From IMG/VR virus record IMGVR_UViG_2698536620_000014: DNA of 55,939 nt, one strand, 5' to 3'. This document shows, piece after piece, positions 49,801 through 55,563 of this stretch. Positions within the stretch are counted from its first letter, which is position 1; every line of letters begins with the position of its first letter. The notes below the pieces were generated by a model. That model saw only the letters and a program-made list of their open reading frames with translations, had not been told where the DNA came from and did no database searches. The DNA comes from a virus. Taxonomy: Duplodnaviria > Heunggongvirae > Uroviricota > Caudoviricetes. The translations under genes and the position numbers were made by a program.

Positions 49801-50212
49801 CGGCACTAAATCCACGAATAACACTGGTGCGCATACCCATAGTTTAAGTGGCAGCACGAATGCAGCTGGTAATCACAGCCATAGAGATGGCCGTCGATTT
49901 AACCCCAGTGTTTTTAAAGATACTTATCAATATGGTTATACAAGCTCAGGTCAAAATACCTGGGGTGTACAAGGCTCAGTAGGTATGTCTACGGGGTGGT
50001 TAGCGAATACCAGTACAGATGGTAATCATAGCCACTCACTGTCCGGCACAGCAGCATCTGCAGGTGCACACGCGCATACTGTCGGTATTGGTGCTCATAC
50101 GCACTCCGTTGCGATTGGTTCACATGGACATACCATCACCGTTAACGCTGCGGGTAACGCGGAAAACACCGTCAAAAACATCGCATTTAACTATATTGTG
50201 AGGCTTGCATAA
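46814..50212 (+). CDS. stfR: Side tail fibre protein (StfR-like), about 1132 aa
   Basis: ATG 46814 after GGGGTG; long Ala/Ser/Thr-rich repeat region; His-rich C-terminus (GAHTHSLSG...GNHSHSLSG...[24 protein letters not shown]) typical of fibre tips; followed by tfa. Confidence 0.85.
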
Positions 50213-50796
50213 TGGCATTCAGAATGAGTGAACAACCACGGACCATAAAAATTTATAATCTGCTGACCGGAACTAATGAATTTATTGGTGAAGGTGACGC
50301 ATATATTCCGCCTCATACAGGTCTGCCAGCAAACAGTACCTATATTGCACCGCCAGATATTCCGGCTGGCTTTGTGGCTGTTTTCAACAGTGATGAGGCA
50401 TCGTGGCATCTCGTTGAAGACCATCGGGGTAAAACGGTTTATGACGTAGCGTCAGGGGACGCGTTATTTATTTCTGAACTCGGTCCGTTACCGGAAAATG
50501 TTACCTGGTTATCCCCGGAAGGGGAATATCAGAAGTGGAACGGTACAGCTTGGGTGAAAGATGCAGAAGCAGAAAAACTATTCCGGATCCGGGAGGCGGA
50601 AGAAACAAAAAACAGCCTGATGCAGGTAGCCAGTGAGCATATTGCGCCGCTTCAGGATGCTGCAGATCTGGAAATCGCAACGGAGGAAGAAACCTCGTTG
50701 CTGGAAGCCTGGAAAAAGTATCGGGTGTTGCTGAACCGTGTTGATACATCAACTGCACCTGATATTGAGTGGCCTGCGGTCCCTGTTATGGAGTAA
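50212..50796 (+). CDS. tfaR: Tail fibre assembly protein (Tfa), 194 aa
   Basis: ATGG overlap with the stf stop; size and position of lambdoid Tfa. Confidence 0.85.
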
Positions 50797-50908
50797 TCGT
50801 TTTGTGATATGCCGCAGCAACTTGTCATGGCAGGATACTGCGGCTGATTTGTGAATTTAAATAGTGTGTTTATTGCTTTATATATAAAGGATTTAATGGA
50901 TTACATAT

Positions 50909-52279
50909 CTATGATATCCCTGAAATGTCCTCTTCAAGCTCTTTTACTGATTTCGCAATTTTAAATTTAAATTTTCTCTCTATTTCACTATTGCTAAGTT
51001 TTTTTTCATTCTCTTTCCCTATCCACATAGAAACAATTTCTCGTTTCTGAGATATATGTAGATTGTCAAAGTTAGGTATGTATTTAAAAGTCTCCGCTCT
51101 ACCCCTGCGGAGTTCATAGAAAGTTTTAATCAAAGACTTTGGTTTTATTTCTGATGAAAGGCCGAATCGGCGGATAAGATTATTGATCGTATGATTAACA
51201 GCTCGAAGTTGAGCTGTTGACGTTATTTGTGAGAAGTACGATACCCATCCCAATCGTTTACCTTCAAACACACATCCCGTAATTCTAAGATTTAGTTTCC
51301 ACTGACAATATGCAACAGCTCGTTCTTTATCGCGCTTATTTTTAGCTTGTAGTAGAGCGTGTCTATATGCAGTAAAAATTTTTGCTAAGGATGACTCAAA
51401 TCTAAGAATGCTCTCATGTTTTATCAATAATTCTCGATTTTTTATGTGGTAGCCCAAAAAGTTGAAACTTTCATCCAAGCTGCCTACTTTGGATTTTGAG
51501 TTCTCTTCATTTAATGGATGTGGGTTTAAATTTAATGATTGAAGCTTATCAATGATATGAGAAGCTATTTTTGTTGCTTGATATTTTGGTGTTAAAATAA
51601 GAATGTCATCAACGTATCGCATGTACCATATGTCATGCATTTTATTGATTTCATCATCGAAATTAGATAGTGATATTTCAGCTAAAATGTTTGATATCGC
51701 TAATCCCTGAGGTACTCCTCTGGTATTATTAGGGATACCTTTGCTTCCTGTGGTTCCACTTACAGTAGGCACGATTAATGATGATGTTATTAACTGTCTA
51801 ATTTCTTTTTTTCTAATTTTATTTTTTATTGCATTAATTATCAATTTATGTTCAATTGAAGGATAGAAACTTTTAAGATCTATTTTTGCATATTCAGCAT
51901 ATAGACTGTTGTTTAATGCTTCTTTCAATGAGTCAATTACTGTATGTGGTAGTTTTAATCTGGACTTAGGATATATTTCCGTAAGGCATTCACAGAGAGC
52001 TCTAAGAGTAATTCTGTCCCTAGCAGTTGGTATGGAAATCTGTCTGGGTGTAGAGTTAGCGCCTTTAGATATTAATTTTTCTTTATATGCTGTAAATTTG
52101 TAATTGCCAGAATTAACCTTTTCAAAAATGAAAGTGATCTCATTTTTTATTGTCAAATCAAGTTTTGATGGGCGAATCCGATCTATGCCAATCGCTCCTG
52201 ATTCTTTGATTTTTTCAGAGTATACTTTTAGAAGATTTTTTTTCGAGAATGACTTTTTAAAAATTCTGCTTGCAGTCAT
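50909..52279 (-). CDS. Reverse transcriptase (defence-associated type: retron-like or UG/Abi-like), 456 aa
   Basis: RT motifs in translation: KIDLKSFYPSI, GVPQGLAISNILAEISL, YMRYVDDILIL (YxDD active site), FNFLGYHI. ATG at 52277-52279 lies 23 nt inside the upstream membrane-protein ORF. AT-rich. Confidence 0.85.
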   Translation of the reverse strand: MTASRIFKKSFSKKNLLKVYSEKIKESGAIGIDRIRPSKLDLTIKNEITFIFEKVNSGNYKFTAYKEKLISKGANSTPRQISIPTARDRITLRALCECLTEIYPKSRLKLPHTVIDSLKEALNNSLYAEYAKIDLKSFYPSIEHKLIINAIKNKIRKKEIRQLITSSLIVPTVSGTTGSKGIPNNTRGVPQGLAISNILAEISLSNFDDEINKMHDIWYMRYVDDILILTPKYQATKIASHIIDKLQSLNLNPHPLNEENSKSKVGSLDESFNFLGYHIKNRELLIKHESILRFESSLAKIFTAYRHALLQAKNKRDKERAVAYCQWKLNLRITGCVFEGKRLGWVSYFSQITSTAQLRAVNHTINNLIRRFGLSSEIKPKSLIKTFYELRRGRAETFKYIPNFDNLHISQKREIVSMWIGKENEKKLSNSEIERKFKFKIAKSVKELEEDISGIS

Positions 52280-52808
52280 AGTCAATCCAAAGATATATTA
52301 ATGGGAGTATATAAAGTGCGGCAGTAATAAATATTCGAAGTAATATCCATAAAATAACAATTATTTTTTCTTTTTGTGTGGGGATCCTCGTCTTAAGTCC
52401 AACTTGAGTTACCCTTGAAATTTTATCATCTATGTCACGGTGATTCTCAACCTCATTGAGCAAATTAAAATATTTTTCTTTCTGTTCAAGAGATAACTGT
52501 TGACTGGTGGTAATGTCAAAATAGAGTCGCTGTAGTGCAATATAATTCCTTCTCATGGCTATTGCTCGACCACGAAAATCTAGGTTAGATACGATCAGAG
52601 AAATACCCAGTAGAGCCACTGAAAGTATCGCCGCAACGACATCTGTATTATCTCCTAGAACCTTTGGAAATCGCAACGTTACAATTGAAAGTACCGCACT
52701 CAATATAGCATACCAAACGAGGATAAATTGAGAGTGTTTTTCAAGCCATTCTAGTCGATGGTGCGCTTGGATACGTGCTTTATATGTAAACCAAATATTG
52801 TCATGCAT
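52257..52808 (-). CDS. Multi-pass membrane protein co-transcribed with the RT (candidate effector), 183 aa
   Basis: ATG 52806-52808 after AAGGA; hydrophobic helices LVWYAILSAVLSIVTL, VVAAILSVALLGISLIVSNL and IIVILWILLRIFITAALYILPLIYLW. Confidence 0.7.
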   Translation of the reverse strand: MHDNIWFTYKARIQAHHRLEWLEKHSQFILVWYAILSAVLSIVTLRFPKVLGDNTDVVAAILSVALLGISLIVSNLDFRGRAIAMRRNYIALQRLYFDITTSQQLSLEQKEKYFNLLNEVENHRDIDDKISRVTQVGLKTRIPTQKEKIIVILWILLRIFITAALYILPLIYLWIDYDCKQNF

Positions 52809-53030
52809 AAAAGATCCTTTTTAAAAGCGGAAGGGGCAGGATATATTGGAACCGTTGAACATCCTGCCCGGCAGGATCAGTGAGCATAAGCTCAACAGTA
52901 AAATATTACTGTTCATTATCAGAGCCGCCCTTGCATGCGCAAGAGGAAAAACCTGCCCCATCCCTTTGAATTATTACAATTTAATGATCTTAAAGTCAAT
53001 ACAAGTGAATGGTGTCCAGAGATGATGAAC
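52809..53030 (-). ncRNA. Structured non-coding region upstream of the membrane-protein/RT operon (candidate RT-associated ncRNA or operator)
   Basis: Four copies of a GGGCAGGAT-type arm in alternating orientation (52833-52842, 52861-52869, 52870-52877, 52952-52959) plus a small cttgc-atgc-gcaag hairpin (52930-52943); no ORF. Confidence 0.3.
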
Positions 53031-53279
53031 TTAATGAACAAACCACTCGTCAGCAGACTCCCAGGTATCTTTCAGAGTCTCCTGAACAAAAGTTTTAGCT
53101 GAATCTTTATCAGCGGTGCGCGTAACAGAAAGGCCATCGTTGCTGGTGGCTTTTACGATCACTTCTACATCGTCATAACGTTTACTGATGCGTCGGGTTA
53201 ATTCTTCCTTTAACGCATCCACAGCACCGGTTGGCATTTTAGTCATTTTTTCTTTGGCTATGCAGATTTCAATACGCAT
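53031..53279 (-). CDS. DinI-like protein, 82 aa
   Basis: [35 protein letters not shown]...[17 protein letters not shown] resembles E. coli DinI as I recall it. Confidence 0.8.
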
Positions 53280-53339
53280 AAAAGTCCCCTACACTGTATT
53301 TGTATACAGTATTATTTTTAACTGTATGGATAAACAGTG

Positions 53340-54437
53340 TCAAGAGGTCTTATTTCTGCTCCTTTGGAGTTCTTCAAAACGATTATGTAAAGATTTCGGA
53401 TACAGTTCGGTATATACCTGCCATAGCACGTTTAATGAACGATGCCCTGTAACCTGAGCGACTTCCTCAATACTAAAACCAGCCTCAAATAAGCGACTTG
53501 CCCCTTCTCTACGCAAATCATGGTATCTCAGATCTTTAATACCTAATTTGCTTCTTACCCTCTGAAATCCTGCGGTAACAGAAGTGCTGTTATATGGAAA
53601 AATGAATTCTGATTTTTTGGGTTGTCGCTGGACGATATCCCAGGCTTCCCCAAGCAAGGCAACTTTCATATGGTTGCCTTCCTTTTTACGTGGATCTTTC
53701 CTGTCTCTTACTAGTATAGATTTTTGTTCCTGGTCGAGATCTTCCCATCGTAACCGGCATACTTCTCCGATTCGCATACAGGACCACACAGAAAATTTGA
53801 GGATATCAACGAACGGAATTTTTGAGCATTTATGAGTAGATCGTTGTTGAAGGCCTTCAATGAGCATGTTCAGTTCATCAGATGCTGGTCTACGATTACG
53901 ACGGTTTGATTTACCAATCAAACCGAGTTTAAGTAGATATGGACGAGCGCTTTTCGCCGGGTTTGATGTGTAATTGATTCCGTATACAGGTTTTGCCGCA
54001 TCCAGAACACTGCCAAGATAACTAACATCGTGGCTGACTGTTGCTGGGCCTGCACCAGCGTTGTTTCTTAGCCTGCAATGTTCAATTACGTCATTTTCTG
54101 TCAGTTCAGATAGTTTGATCGCGGAGATGTCACTATCCATAAGCAGTTCCAGCACATATCTTTTAGTACGGCCTGCTTTACCTCCGGCATTTGGGTCATT
54201 TAAATATTTGTGTAGTAAGTCACGGACTGTAAGTCCGTCAACAGCATTTGATGATGGAATGCCATATAGATCTAATTCCATCACTTTCTGTGCGCCCCAT
54301 GTTTTGGCATGAGCATGTTTAGGGAATGTTTTGCTTTCCCTGTAAGTGATAACACCTTTTTCTTTGATAATCACATTACAGCGATAGCGTGGTGTGCCAT
54401 CGGATTTTAGTCGTTTCTCTATGTTATAGTACGCCAT
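53340..54437 (-). CDS. Tyrosine integrase adjacent to dusA (candidate DusA-associated integrase), 365 aa
   Basis: C-terminal catalytic region with HDLRREGASRLFEAGFSIEEVAQVTGHRSLNVLWQVY (H-x-x-R ... Y); divergent from dusA with an 88-bp spacer. Confidence 0.85.
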   Translation of the reverse strand: MAYYNIEKRLKSDGTPRYRCNVIIKEKGVITYRESKTFPKHAHAKTWGAQKVMELDLYGIPSSNAVDGLTVRDLLHKYLNDPNAGGKAGRTKRYVLELLMDSDISAIKLSELTENDVIEHCRLRNNAGAGPATVSHDVSYLGSVLDAAKPVYGINYTSNPAKSARPYLLKLGLIGKSNRRNRRPASDELNMLIEGLQQRSTHKCSKIPFVDILKFSVWSCMRIGEVCRLRWEDLDQEQKSILVRDRKDPRKKEGNHMKVALLGEAWDIVQRQPKKSEFIFPYNSTSVTAGFQRVRSKLGIKDLRYHDLRREGASRLFEAGFSIEEVAQVTGHRSLNVLWQVYTELYPKSLHNRFEELQRSRNKTS

Positions 54438-54456
54438 TACACGACCTCGTTATTTC

Positions 54457-54493
54457 GGGTTCCCATAAAGCGTGGGAACCTGTGCGGGAACCT
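54457..54493. repeat. Inverted and direct GGGAACC repeats in the int-dusA spacer (candidate integrase-binding or att-associated sites)
   Basis: gggttccc (54457-54464) is the inverted partner of gggaacc (54474-54480); gggaacct is directly repeated at 54486-54493. Confidence 0.35.
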
Positions 54494-54525
54494 AACGCGA
54501 GAAAAATAGCCTGAAATGTTCAAAA

Positions 54526-55563
54526 ATGCACGATAATCCTGAAACACAGAAAACTAATCAAACCAGCGTGATGCCTGAAAAAACTGGCGCTTACTGGAGT
54601 TCTCGGTTTAGCATTGCTCCTATGCTCGACTGGACGGACAGACATTGCCGCTATTTCTTGCGTCTGCTTTCCCGCAATACGTTGCTGTATACCGAAATGG
54701 TGACCACAGGGGCGATTATTCACGGTAAAGGTGATTACCTGGCGTACAGTGAAGAAGAACATCCGGTAGCGTTGCAACTCGGCGGTAGCGATCCGGCGGC
54801 GCTGGCACAGTGTGCGAAGCTGGCAGAAGCGCGTGGATATGATGAGATCAACCTGAATGTCGGCTGCCCGTCTGACCGGGTGCAGAACGGCATGTTTGGT
54901 GCGTGTCTGATGGGTAATGCGCAGCTGGTTGCCGACTGCGTGAAAGCGATGCGCGATGTGGTGTCGATTCCAGTGACGGTGAAAACGCGTATTGGCATCG
55001 ATGACCAGGACAGCTATGAATTTCTCTGCGATTTCATCAACACCGTTTCCGGCAAAGGCGAGTGTGAGATGTTTATCATCCACGCACGTAAAGCCTGGCT
55101 TTCGGGGTTAAGCCCGAAAGAAAACCGTGAAATCCCGCCACTCGATTATCCGCGTGTGTATCAACTGAAGCGTGACTTTCCGCATCTGACAATGTCGATT
55201 AACGGTGGTATCAAGTCGCTGGAAGAGGCCAAAGCACACCTGCAACATATGGATGGCGTGATGGTCGGGCGCGAGGCGTATCAGAATCCGGGTATTCTGG
55301 CGGCGGTAGACCGGGAGATCTTTGGTTCCTCGGATACCGATGCCGATCCGGTGGCGGTAGTGCGCGCCATGTATCCGTACATTGAGCGTGAACTCAGCCA
55401 GGGGACGTATCTCGGCCATATTACCCGGCATATGTTGGGCTTGTTCCAGGGTATTCCTGGCGCGCGGCAGTGGCGGCGTTATTTAAGTGAAAATGCCCAT
55501 AAAGCGGGTGCAGACATTAATGTGCTGGAACACGCGCTCAAACTGGTGGCGGATAAGCGTTAA
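54526..55563 (+). CDS. dusA: tRNA-dihydrouridine synthase A, 345 aa
   Basis: Dus-family core with [22 protein letters not shown]...[14 protein letters not shown]...; host housekeeping gene. Confidence 0.9.

What the first reader, a model, noticed from the sequence alone, without database searches (positions are those of the whole stretch)
52809..53030. Structured 220-bp non-coding region with repeated GGGCAGGAT arms upstream of the membrane-protein/RT operon
No ORF is present. The sequence contains four copies of a 8-10 nt arm in alternating orientation (52833-52842, 52861-52869, 52870-52877, 52952-52959), allowing a local 9-bp stem with an 18-nt loop and a long-range pairing about 120 nt apart, plus a short GC hairpin at 52930-52943. 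This is the kind of layout expected for an RT-associated structured ncRNA with flanking inverted repeats, or alternatively a repeated operator.
Basis: seen in the sequence. Interest (0 to 1): 0.55.

Follow-up and report, generated by a model that had tools for sequence, protein, structure and literature searches.

The report
DRT10 reverse-transcriptase template RNA (Eco3-type)
The repeated arms are real and belong to a 137-nt non-coding RNA that scaffolds and templates the neighbouring anti-phage reverse transcriptase (DRT10/UG17 with a SLATT membrane effector); this RNA family was fully described in 2025-2026, so the finding is correct but not new.

Summary
All four arms sit at the stated coordinates, and the minus strand folds far better than shuffles (z -4.06).

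The downstream genes are a SLATT_5 protein and a UG17 reverse transcriptase, which together form a DRT10 defence system. The intergenic region encodes the DRT10 ncRNA on the minus strand, about 52963..52827, behind its own sigma-70-like promoter (52999..52970).

- **Arms:** The four arms are the two strands of the basal stem SL1 and of SL5. SL5 is the template-boundary hairpin. The 20-nt loop between SL5 and SL1 is the template loop.
- **Conservation:** Thirty-eight distinct homologous RNAs support SL1-SL5 with many compensatory changes.
- **Independent test:** A covariance model built only from distant homologues hits the window once (114.8 bits, E 7.5e-28).
- **Relation to Eco3DRT10:** The RNA equals the published Eco3DRT10 ncRNA (RIP-seq, mutagenesis, cryo-EM) apart from two template bases. 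The template is CAACGGUUC-CAAU instead of CAAUGAUUC-CAAU. The predicted product is therefore a protein-primed (GAACCGTTG)n tandem-repeat cDNA.

Novelty: already known. Interest is low to moderate.

The parts
52970..52999 (-). Sigma-70-like promoter of the ncRNA: TTGACT, 18-nt spacer, AATAAT, with TG before the -10
   Evidence: The scan gives 10 of 12 matches. The promoter is identical in five E. coli alleles. It places the transcription start about 7 nt downstream, near 52963. Sanchez-Nieto et al. showed that the UG17-A ncRNA is transcribed from its own promoter.
52827..52963 (-). DRT10 ncRNA, 137 nt (nt 1 = 52963), Eco3DRT10 type
   Evidence: A covariance model built from distant homologues only hits 52966..52827 on the minus strand at 114.8 bits, E 7.5e-28, the single significant hit in the window. 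The ends are inferred from the published Eco3 numbering. With nt 1 = 52963, U43, G44, G86, G104, U105-U106, C107, G111, C116 and A120-U123 all fall on the published bases.
52952..52963 (-). SL1 5' strand (GGA-U-GGGGCAGG).
   Evidence: Seen in the MFE fold. Eight of the 10 SL1 pairs in the model show compensatory changes, and 98.4% of cells are paired.
52829..52840 (-). SL1 3' strand (CCUGCCCC-U-UCC).
   Evidence: (I1).
52928..52945 (-). SL2 (CUCUUGC-GCAU-GCAAGGG).
   Evidence: Covarying pairs include UA:21/CG:17 and GC:18/AU:15.
52914..52927 (-). Loop A (CGGCUCUGAUAAUG, nt 37-50), the second, non-repetitive template loop bound by the second RT monomer
   Evidence: It is unpaired in the fold, and 9 of its 14 positions are at least 90% conserved. 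In Eco3DRT10, U43 and G44 of Loop A template a roughly 10-nt abortive product. The paper counts 12 nt for this loop; my fold leaves 14 unpaired.
52894..52913 (-). SL3 (AACAGUAA-UAUU-UUACUGUU)
   Evidence: (I6). Three compensatory pairs and 100% of cells paired. It has 25% GC, as stated for Eco3 SL3.
52882..52893 (-). SL4 (GAGC-UUAU-GCUC)
   Evidence: All four pairs show compensatory changes.
52861..52877 (-). SL5 (AUCCUGC-CGG-GCAGGAU), the template-boundary hairpin.
   Evidence: (I5). 100% of cells are paired, with CG:19/UA:12/UG:7 at the top conserved pair. Scrambling or truncating SL5 abolishes repeat synthesis in Eco3.
52841..52860 (-). Template loop / Loop B (GUUCAACGGUUCCAAUAUAU, nt 104-123)
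   Evidence: The loop is 20 nt, matching the twenty positions mutated in Eco3. GUUCAA is invariant or nearly so in 38 homologues.
52849..52857 (-). Predicted template A-B (CAACGGUUC, nt 107-115), giving the cDNA repeat GAACCGTTG
   Evidence: It aligns base for base with the validated Eco3 template CAAUGAUUC, which is carried by L055 and L061. The differences are U110C and A112G.
52845..52848 (-). Realignment segment A' (CAAU, nt 116-119). C116 is the priming position.
   Evidence: CAA at loop position 4 recurs 9-11 nt downstream in 36 of 38 homologues. dGTP is seen opposite C116 in the Eco3 cryo-EM structure.
52257..52808 (-). SLATT_5 two-transmembrane effector gene
   Evidence: PADLOC RTasSLATT 1.5e-56; Pfam SLATT_5 1.3e-28.
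50909..52279 (-). UG17 (DRT10) reverse transcriptase, 456 aa counted from the ATG, ending in Ser456
   Evidence: PADLOC RT_UG17 1.1e-158 over the full length. YVDD 222-225, R371, K385, Y388 and S456 are invariant in 25 homologues. RefSeq annotates the same 1371-nt CDS.

Best explanation
The region encodes, on the minus strand, the non-coding RNA of a DRT10 anti-phage system (ncRNA + SLATT + UG17 RT) carried at the end of a dusA-integrated prophage.

**Transcript and fold.** The RNA starts from its own promoter near 52963 and is about 137 nt long. It folds into a basal stem SL1 (5' and 3' ends) that encloses SL2, Loop A, SL3, SL4, SL5 and the 20-nt template loop (Loop B).

**Mechanism, inferred by identity with Eco3DRT10 apart from two template bases:**
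1. Two RT monomers bind one RNA.
2. The monomer on Loop B primes DNA synthesis from its own C-terminal Ser456, opposite C116.
3. It copies CAACGGUUC up to C107. The stop is fixed by the SL5 anchor (the G86-G104 contact with R371), and SL1 anchors the other side.
4. The nascent DNA 3' end (...GTTG) melts off and re-pairs with CAAU (nt 116-119).
5. The cycle repeats, giving a long single-stranded (GAACCGTTG)n cDNA linked to the RT.
6. According to the published models, accumulation or altered turnover of this cDNA during infection activates the SLATT membrane effector.

**Shown here:** gene identities, RNA fold, covariation, the homology-model hit, the promoter match and the A-B-A' pattern.

**Inferred from the literature:** transcript ends, 2:1 stoichiometry, protein priming, the repeat product and the link to SLATT.
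For: - **Genes.** RT_UG17 scores 1.1e-158 and RTasSLATT 1.5e-56. Pfam gives RVT_1 and SLATT_5.
- **Literature.** DRT10 has an ncRNA of 137-143 nt upstream of SLATT, and this RNA is required for defence.
- **Fold.** The MFE fold shows SL1-SL5 plus a 20-nt loop, z -4.06.
- **Promoter.** A match of 10/12 lies on the correct strand.
- **Covariation, MAFFT alignment.** With 38 distinct homologues, 91.4% of cells are paired against at most 54.9% when partners are slid. Twenty-three pairs show double changes against 6-12 in the slid controls, and 0 of 500 shuffles reach the observed values.
- **Covariation, model-fitted alignment.** 98.3% of cells are paired and 19 of 32 pairs are compensatory.
- **Independent model.** A model built without the window clade hits 52966..52827 on the minus strand at 114.8 bits, E 7.5e-28.
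- **One hit per locus.** All 52 related loci that gave a hit have exactly one, upstream of SLATT.
- **Single-sequence folding.** Partition functions recover SL1, SL2, SL3 and SL5 at median probability 0.9 or higher.
- **Template.** L055 and L061 (RT 97% identical) carry CAAUGAUUC-CAAU, the reverse complement of the published Eco3 repeat GAATCATTG. The window differs only at nt 110 and 112.
- **Published landmarks.** U43, G44, G86, G104, U105-106, C107, G111, C116, A120-U123 and the 25% GC of SL3 all match.
- **RT residues.** R371, K385, Y388, YVDD and S456 are present.
Against: - No expression, cDNA or defence data exist for this exact allele, and the transcript ends are inferred by numbering.
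- The window's loop holds a second A-B-A' register, GUUC-AACG-GUUC with period 8, that is formally longer than CAA/CAA with period 9. The product could therefore be less precise or differ from my prediction.
- At the fourth A/A' position the window has C against U. On realignment this gives a dG:rU wobble instead of a Watson-Crick pair.
- Rfam 15 has no family that matches, so membership rests on my own model and on preprints.
Confidence: 0.93

Rival explanations
1. The four arms form a two-state RNA switch. SL1+SL5 would alternate with a fold in which arm 52952-59 pairs with 52870-77 and arm 52861-69 pairs with 52833-42. This second fold closes the template into a hairpin loop and would gate template access or repeat addition.
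For: In the window the alternative fold is only 3.3 kcal/mol above the MFE (-54.2 against -57.5 kcal/mol) and holds about 2.5% of the ensemble. SL5 and SL1 share 8-9 nt in the E. coli clade and 6 nt in the clade with 77-83% RT identity.
Against: The alternative helices have no covariation support: 104 of 500 shuffles reach the paired percentage and 490 of 500 reach the number of compensatory pairs. The 9-bp helix is paired in only 68% of cells. In most homologues SL5 is 4-6 bp and the match shrinks to 3-5 bp in a pyrimidine-rich tail, where chance pairing with GGGAU is likely. In Eco3DRT10, flipping the SL5 base pairs had no detectable effect on defence. As I read that experiment, the flip removes the complementarity to SL1.
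Confidence: 0.04
2. The arms are repeated operator sites for a DNA-binding regulator of the SLATT-RT operon or of the prophage.
For: The arms are 8-10 bp, occur in both orientations, and lie between a promoter and the first gene.
Against: The arms lie downstream of the promoter, inside the transcribed RNA. Across homologues the arm sequences change while complementarity is kept, for example GGGGCAGG/CCUGCCCC, GGGGUGGG/CCCACCCC and AGAGGCAGG/CCUGCCUCU. That is selection on RNA pairing, not on a DNA motif. The SL5 arms are not conserved in length. No regulator gene belongs to the conserved cassette.
Confidence: 0.02
3. It is a retron msr-msd whose flanking inverted repeats (a1/a2) set up 2'-OH-primed synthesis of RNA-linked multicopy single-stranded DNA.
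For: The general layout is similar: a structured RNA with pairing 5' and 3' ends next to an RT and a 2TM effector. Several database names call the homologues a 'retron-type reverse transcriptase'.
Against: The RT matches UG17 at 1.1e-158, and no retron RT model appears among the best 25 PADLOC hits. There is no long msd stem. No Rfam retron family matches. For the near-identical Eco3 system the DNA is linked to Ser456 of the RT and is unaffected by RNase.
Confidence: 0.01
4. It is a terminator or attenuator. The hairpins would end dinI transcription or limit read-through into SLATT-RT, with no trans-acting RNA.
For: The region lies directly downstream of dinI (stop at 53031) on the same strand. 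SL1 is followed by UUCCGCUUUU.
Against: No intrinsic terminator is found on the minus strand. The same RNA occurs upstream of SLATT in loci from other genera, without any conserved flanking sequence. Conservation extends to the unpaired loops and to an A-B-A' pattern that a terminator does not need. A side role in limiting read-through is not excluded.
Confidence: 0.02

Closest known systems
Eco3DRT10 ncRNA (Tang et al. 2025, PMC12632851; Ramirez et al. 2026, bioRxiv 10.64898/2026.06.29.735271)
   Same: Same host species and same operon order (ncRNA-SLATT-RT). The RT is about 97% identical in loci that carry the Eco3 template. Both have five stem-loops, a 20-nt template loop and a 137-nt frame. 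The landmark bases match (U43, G44, G86, G104, U105-106, C107, G111, C116, A120-U123), as do RT S456, R371, K385 and Y388.
   Different: Two template bases differ (U110C, A112G), so the predicted repeat is GAACCGTTG instead of GAATCATTG. A-A' identity is 3 nt plus a wobble instead of 4 nt. The change also creates a stronger off-register repeat, GUUC...GUUC with period 8. One further difference lies just upstream of the start.
UG17-A ncRNA of Escherichia sp. E3659 (Sanchez-Nieto et al. 2026, bioRxiv 10.64898/2026.04.29.721553)
   Same: It is a tripartite ncRNA-SLATT-RT module in which the ncRNA has its own promoter. The basal stem SL1 is essential for RNA stability. The template loop carries a short repeat, ACU...ACU, that gives 7-nt tandem repeats.
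   Different: The sequence is different: 143 nt, six predicted stem-loops and template ACUUAUUACU. Their northern probe has no counterpart in the window sequence.
DRT9 (UG28) ncRNA
   Same: It is a structured ncRNA upstream of a Class 2 UG RT, with the template in a loop and protein-primed synthesis. Tang et al. note that the secondary structures are similar.
   Different: DRT9 makes poly-dA from a conserved poly-U template and primes from tyrosine. Here the template is a mixed 9-mer with an A-B-A' pattern and the RT ends in Ser. I did not compare it with DRT9 sequences.
Telomerase RNA
   Same: It works alike. A short internal template is copied repeatedly. The 5' boundary is set by an adjacent helix, and an alignment segment re-pairs the product 3' end.
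   Different: The DRT10 RNA is not a homologous RNA family. It is bacterial, about 137 nt, binds two RTs, uses a protein primer instead of a chromosome end, and its product serves immunity.
Retron msr-msd
   Same: It is an RT-associated structured RNA with pairing ends, often next to a 2TM effector.
   Different: The RT family, the priming chemistry and the product all differ.

Membership tests
DRT10 (UG17) defence system | RT of the UG17 group | tested here: met
   PADLOC RT_UG17 1.1e-158, residues 3-458 on profile positions 1-429 of 429. The next family, Drt3a, scores 3.2e-38.
DRT10 (UG17) defence system | Adjacent SLATT_5 protein, tightly coupled to the RT gene | tested here: met
   RTasSLATT 1.5e-56 and SLATT_5 1.3e-28. 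The SLATT stop at 52257 overlaps the RT ATG at 52279 by 23 nt.
DRT10 (UG17) defence system | [quoted passage not shown] | tested here: met
   The independent covariance model hits 52966..52827 on the minus strand, 19 nt upstream of the SLATT ATG, at 114.8 bits. Covariation is shown.
DRT10 (UG17) defence system | [quoted passage not shown] | tested here: met
   CAAC-GGUUC-CAAU lies 3 nt after the 7-bp SL5. CAA at loop position 4 is repeated 9-11 nt downstream in 36 of 38 homologues.
DRT10 (UG17) defence system | Conserved C-terminal priming residue and catalytic YVDD | tested here: met
   Y222-V223-D224-D225 and S456 are present and invariant in 25 homologues.
DRT10 (UG17) defence system | ncRNA expressed and bound by the RT; RT-dependent tandem-repeat cDNA; phage defence | not testable with these tools
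   These are shown only for Eco1-3DRT10, six further homologues and the E3659 system in the literature. The window allele itself has not been assayed.
Eco3DRT10-type ncRNA (subtype) | Five stem-loops with 2:1 RT landmarks (G86/G104 at the SL5 base, U105-U106 5' linker, C107 boundary, C116 priming site, A120-U123 3' linker, U43/G44 in Loop A) | tested here: met
   With nt 1 = 52963 every listed base is present at its number (sequence; landmarks). The window is identical to the Eco3-template allele across the RNA except at nt 110 and 112.
Retron | Retron-clade RT and an msr-msd with a long msd stem and a branching G next to a1/a2 | tested here: not met
   No retron RT model appears among the best 25 PADLOC hits. 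No Rfam retron family matches. The fold has five short hairpins and no long msd stem.
Any Rfam family | Score at or above a family's gathering threshold | tested here: not met
   The only hit in the region is MEG8_1 at 15.1 bits against a threshold of 70. The DRT10 RNA does not match any Rfam 15 family.
Intrinsic terminator | GC-rich hairpin with a 3-8 nt loop followed by a T run, on the minus strand | tested here: not met
   The scan found none on the minus strand in 52700-53350.

The most novel reading that the evidence does not exclude
The window carries a natural template allele (CAACGGUUC) of the Eco3DRT10 RNA, and it coexists in E. coli with the CAAUGAUUC allele. Between the window and the Eco3-type locus, the only two substitutions inside the 137-nt RNA fall in the template (3 differences in 217 aligned bases overall). 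This dimorphism might be selected, for instance if the repeat sequence matters for SLATT activation, for turnover by host nucleases or for evasion of a phage counter-measure. The window allele also creates competing 8-nt and 9-nt registers, which could make its product heterogeneous. Separately, the shared SL1/SL5 sequence could still tune folding kinetics.
Probability: 0.1. Interest if true: 0.45.

Novelty: already known. Interest (0 to 1): 0.25.

Why it matters
DRT10 is a striking system. A bacterial RT and a small RNA make telomere-like tandem repeats by a telomerase-like cycle, and this has been used to argue that telomerase has a bacterial origin.

For this window, the practical value is annotation. 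The 222-bp 'empty' spacer in an E. coli O25b:H4-type prophage is an essential, unannotated gene of a defence system. The same RNA sits unannotated in 188 of 5426 complete E. coli genomes.

The natural template variant gives a concrete, cheap prediction, (GAACCGTTG)n, that would test the published geometric boundary rule on a wild allele. Beyond that, nothing here changes current understanding.

Tried and rejected
- **Rfam scan** of 50500-54600 at E up to 10: nothing relevant in the region.
- **My first template reading**, GUUC-AACG-GUUC with an 8-nt repeat. I demoted it after finding that L055 and L061 carry the exact Eco3 template in the same frame, and that the published boundary is C107, a fixed distance from SL5.
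I rejected it for lack of covariation, and the published SL5 inversion also argues against it.
- **The RNAalifold consensus** replaced SL4 with a pairing of nt 40-43 to the SL4 5' strand. That helix shows only one-sided changes, whereas SL4 shows compensatory changes at all four pairs, so I kept SL4.
- **The MFE pairs between Loop A and the template loop** in the window were dropped. Loop A is invariant while the template varies, so the pairing cannot be conserved.
- **Looking up the window RNA in Tang et al. Table S2** failed because the stored file is cut before the Eco3-like rows. Only a near-identical RT/SLATT entry was found, UG17_locus_457 with WP_077903186.1.
- **blastn against the phage collection**: no match.
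- **Alpha-proteobacterial UG17 loci** (RT 31-34% identical): no hit with my model. This fits the report that ncRNA models work only within subtypes, and I did not pursue it.

Full report
**1. What is in the sequence.**

The finding covers the whole 222-bp spacer between a DinI-like gene (53279..53031, minus strand) and a 183-aa ORF (52808..52257, minus strand). The repeat finder lists the following:
- the long-range pair 52829-52840 / 52952-52963, 12 nt and 92% complementary;
- the local 9-nt pair 52834-42 / 52861-69, with 18 nt between the arms;
- the adjacent 8-nt pair 52861-68 / 52870-77;

Three of the four exact GGCAGGAT 8-mers in the 56-kb window lie within 43 nt here. Read on the minus strand, which is the strand of the flanking genes, 52966..52825 folds at -57.5 kcal/mol against -40.95 +/- 4.08 for shuffles. 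That gives z -4.06, with 0 of 200 shuffles folding as well.

**2. The neighbours identify the system.**

- The 183-aa protein is a SLATT_5 two-transmembrane protein (PADLOC RTasSLATT 1.5e-56; Pfam SLATT_5 1.3e-28).
- The overlapping downstream gene is a UG17 reverse transcriptase (PADLOC RT_UG17 1.1e-158 over the full profile; Pfam RVT_1).
- The cassette lies between a tail-fibre assembly gene and dinI-integrase-dusA. That places it at the end of a dusA-integrated prophage.
- The window is 100% identical to E. coli O25b:H4 NZ_CP015085.1, where RefSeq annotates nothing in the spacer.

UG17 + SLATT is the DRT10 defence system. Three papers describe its third component, an ncRNA of 137-143 nt encoded upstream of SLATT. 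This RNA binds the RT and templates protein-primed tandem-repeat cDNA:
- Tang et al. 2025, PMC12632851;
- Sanchez-Nieto et al. 2026;
- Ramirez et al. 2026.

**3. Anatomy on the minus strand.**

A promoter-like site, TTGACT-18 nt-AATAAT with TG before the -10 (10 of 12 matches), lies at 52999..52970. It places the start near 52963. The MFE fold contains these elements:

| Element | Sequence | Window coordinates |
|---|---|---|
| SL1, basal stem | GGA-U-GGGGCAGG with CCUGCCCC-U-UCC | 52963-52952 with 52840-52829 |
| SL2 | (7-bp hairpin) | 52945-52928 |
| Loop A, unpaired | CGGCUCUGAUAAUG | 52927-52914 |
| SL3 | (8-bp hairpin) | 52913-52894 |
| SL4 | (4-bp hairpin) | 52893-52882 |
| SL5 | AUCCUGC-CGG-GCAGGAU | 52877-52861 |
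| Template loop, 20 nt | GUUCAACGGUUCCAAUAUAU | 52860-52841 |

In this lineage the two stems happen to share the sequence GGCAGGAU / AUCCUGCC.

**4. Comparative test.**

I aligned 25 RT homologues (taken). With that alignment I fetched 44 loci from species-representative genomes and 35 from IMG/VR. Every locus with an RT at least 50% identical and enough upstream DNA carries a recognisable homologue of the spacer RNA directly upstream of SLATT. This gives 38 distinct sequences, from Escherichia, Xenorhabdus, Photorhabdus, Buttiauxella, Pseudomonas, Stutzerimonas, Stenotrophomonas, Bordetella and others.

On the plain MAFFT alignment, the five-helix structure performs as follows:
- It pairs 91.4% of cells, against 45.6-54.9% when the 3' partners are slid by 1-3 columns.
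- Twenty-three of 40 pairs show compensatory double changes, against 6-12 in the slid controls.
- No shuffle out of 500 reaches the observed values.

Clear examples of covariation are SL1 GC:23/AU:10 and AU:28/GC:7, SL2 UA:21/CG:17, SL4 AU:17/GC:13 and SL5 CG:18/UA:12.

I then built a covariance model from 26 distant homologues only, excluding the window and its 77-100% clade. It finds one significant hit in the 56-kb window, 52966..52827 on the minus strand, at 114.8 bits and E 7.5e-28 (E-values are rough). It also finds one hit in each of 52 related loci and none in alpha-proteobacterial UG17 loci. On the model-fitted alignment, 98.3% of cells pair and 19 of 32 pairs are compensatory (this alignment leans towards the model). 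Single-sequence partition functions recover SL1, SL2, SL3 and SL5 at median probability 0.9 or higher.

**5.

In the window, a fold that uses this stem plus a pairing of the outer arm with the SL5 5' strand is only 3.3 kcal/mol above the MFE and holds about 2.5% of the ensemble. Across homologues these helices show no covariation. 104 of 500 shuffles reach the paired percentage, 490 of 500 reach the compensatory count, and the 9-bp helix pairs in only 68% of cells.

In most homologues SL5 is 4-6 bp, and the residual match is 3-5 bp in a C/U-rich tail. Ramirez et al. report that inverting SL5, which keeps pairing but swaps identities, leaves defence intact. As I read that experiment, it removes the cross-complementarity. 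I therefore treat the four-arm symmetry as a lineage-specific by-product of a lengthened SL5, not a switch.

**6. Identity with Eco3DRT10.**

Two IMG/VR loci with 97% identical RTs (L055, L061), and E. coli strains GPEC1337 and MS20654, carry GUUCAAUGAUUCCAAU in the loop. CAAUGAUUC is the reverse complement of the published Eco3DRT10 repeat GAATCATTG, and it is followed by the published A' segment CAAU.

If the template is numbered 107-115 as published, nt 1 is window 52963 and the 137th nt is 52827. With that frame, all of the published landmarks fall on the right bases:
- U43 and G44 in Loop A;
- the G86/G104 pair at the SL5 base;
- the U105-U106 linker;
- the C107 boundary;
- G111;
- the C116 priming site;
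- the A120-U123 linker;
- the 25% GC content of SL3.

The RT has YVDD, R371, K385 and Y388, and it ends in S456 when started at the ATG that RefSeq uses. The window RNA differs from the Eco3-type allele only at nt 110 (U to C) and nt 112 (A to G).

**7. Mechanism (literature-based inference for this allele).**

1. Two RT monomers bind one pseudo-symmetric RNA. The monomer on Loop A makes only a roughly 10-nt abortive product.
2. The monomer on Loop B primes from Ser456 opposite C116 and copies up to C107. SL5 and its RT contact fix that boundary.
3. The product then realigns on A'.

For the window the template is CAACGGUUC. The predicted product is (GAACCGTTG)n, and realignment uses three Watson-Crick pairs plus a dG:rU wobble. 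Published mutants at the fourth A position and in B are tolerated, so the allele should be active.

One caveat remains. The substitutions create GUUC...GUUC at period 8. This is a possible cryptic realignment site of the kind that makes Eco1DRT10 imprecise. How the cDNA activates SLATT is still a model; proposed factors are SbcB and a phage SSB-like trigger.

**8. Rivals.**

- **Operator sites.** These are contradicted by compensatory change and by the position inside the transcript.
- **Retron.** This is contradicted by the RT family, the fold and the published protein linkage.
- **Terminator or attenuator.** None is predicted on the minus strand. The conserved loops and the A-B-A' pattern would also be unexplained.

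**9. Verdict.**

The feature is, however, the already characterised DRT10 ncRNA of the Eco3 type. What is specific to this window is a natural two-base template variant. The RNA is present and unannotated in 188 of 5426 complete E. coli genomes.

Noticed in passing
window 50555-50753 (+): There is a full-length match to Rfam IS009 (RF02111), 224.8 bits against a gathering score of 117, E 3.6e-56. It lies inside the tail-fibre assembly ORF 50212-50796.
   Followed up: no
window 52845-52857 (-); L055, L061, L081, L082, L083: E. coli carries at least two natural template alleles of the same ncRNA. CAACGGUUC is in the window and in strain P13-6. CAAUGAUUC, the published Eco3 template, is in L055, L061, GPEC1337 and MS20654. 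Between the window and L055, the only two differences inside the RNA are in the template. Across the genomes, 81 have the RNA at 99% identity or more and 107 at 95-99%.
   Followed up: partly
window 52833-52959 (-): SL1 and SL5 share 8-9 nt, so a four-arm alternative fold lies only 3.3 kcal/mol above the MFE. It is not supported by covariation.
   Followed up: yes
window 52914-52927 (-), Loop A: Nine of the 14 Loop A positions are at least 90% conserved across RNAs whose RTs are only 50-100% identical. Yet published experiments could lengthen Loop A or exchange it with Loop B and still detect robust tandem-repeat cDNA synthesis. The reason for this natural conservation is not obvious.
   Followed up: no
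window 52279-52285 (-): The mechanical ORF list starts the RT at a TTG (458 aa). The ATG two codons downstream gives 456 aa, matches RefSeq, and puts the C-terminal serine at the published number S456.
   Followed up: yes
L027-L042 (alpha-proteobacterial UG17 loci), about 150-250 nt upstream of SLATT: These loci are not hit by the Eco3-type model. Their upstream regions show a different RNA-like layout with long GC-rich terminal pairings, for example GUGUGCGAGGGG...CCUCGCACAC in L029 and L041. They are probably another DRT10 ncRNA subtype.
   Followed up: partly
window 50909-54437: The DRT10 cassette sits between the tail-fibre assembly gene and dinI-integrase, at the dusA end of the prophage. 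The integrase next to it is probably the 'associated tyrosine recombinase' that Tang et al. found dispensable for defence.
   Followed up: no
Pseudomonas loci L004-L023, 8-12 nt upstream of SL1: A -10-like TAGAAT or TAAGAT lies at a fixed short distance upstream of the SL1 5' strand in nearly all Pseudomonas loci. This suggests the ncRNA promoter position is conserved even though the flanks are unrelated.
   Followed up: no
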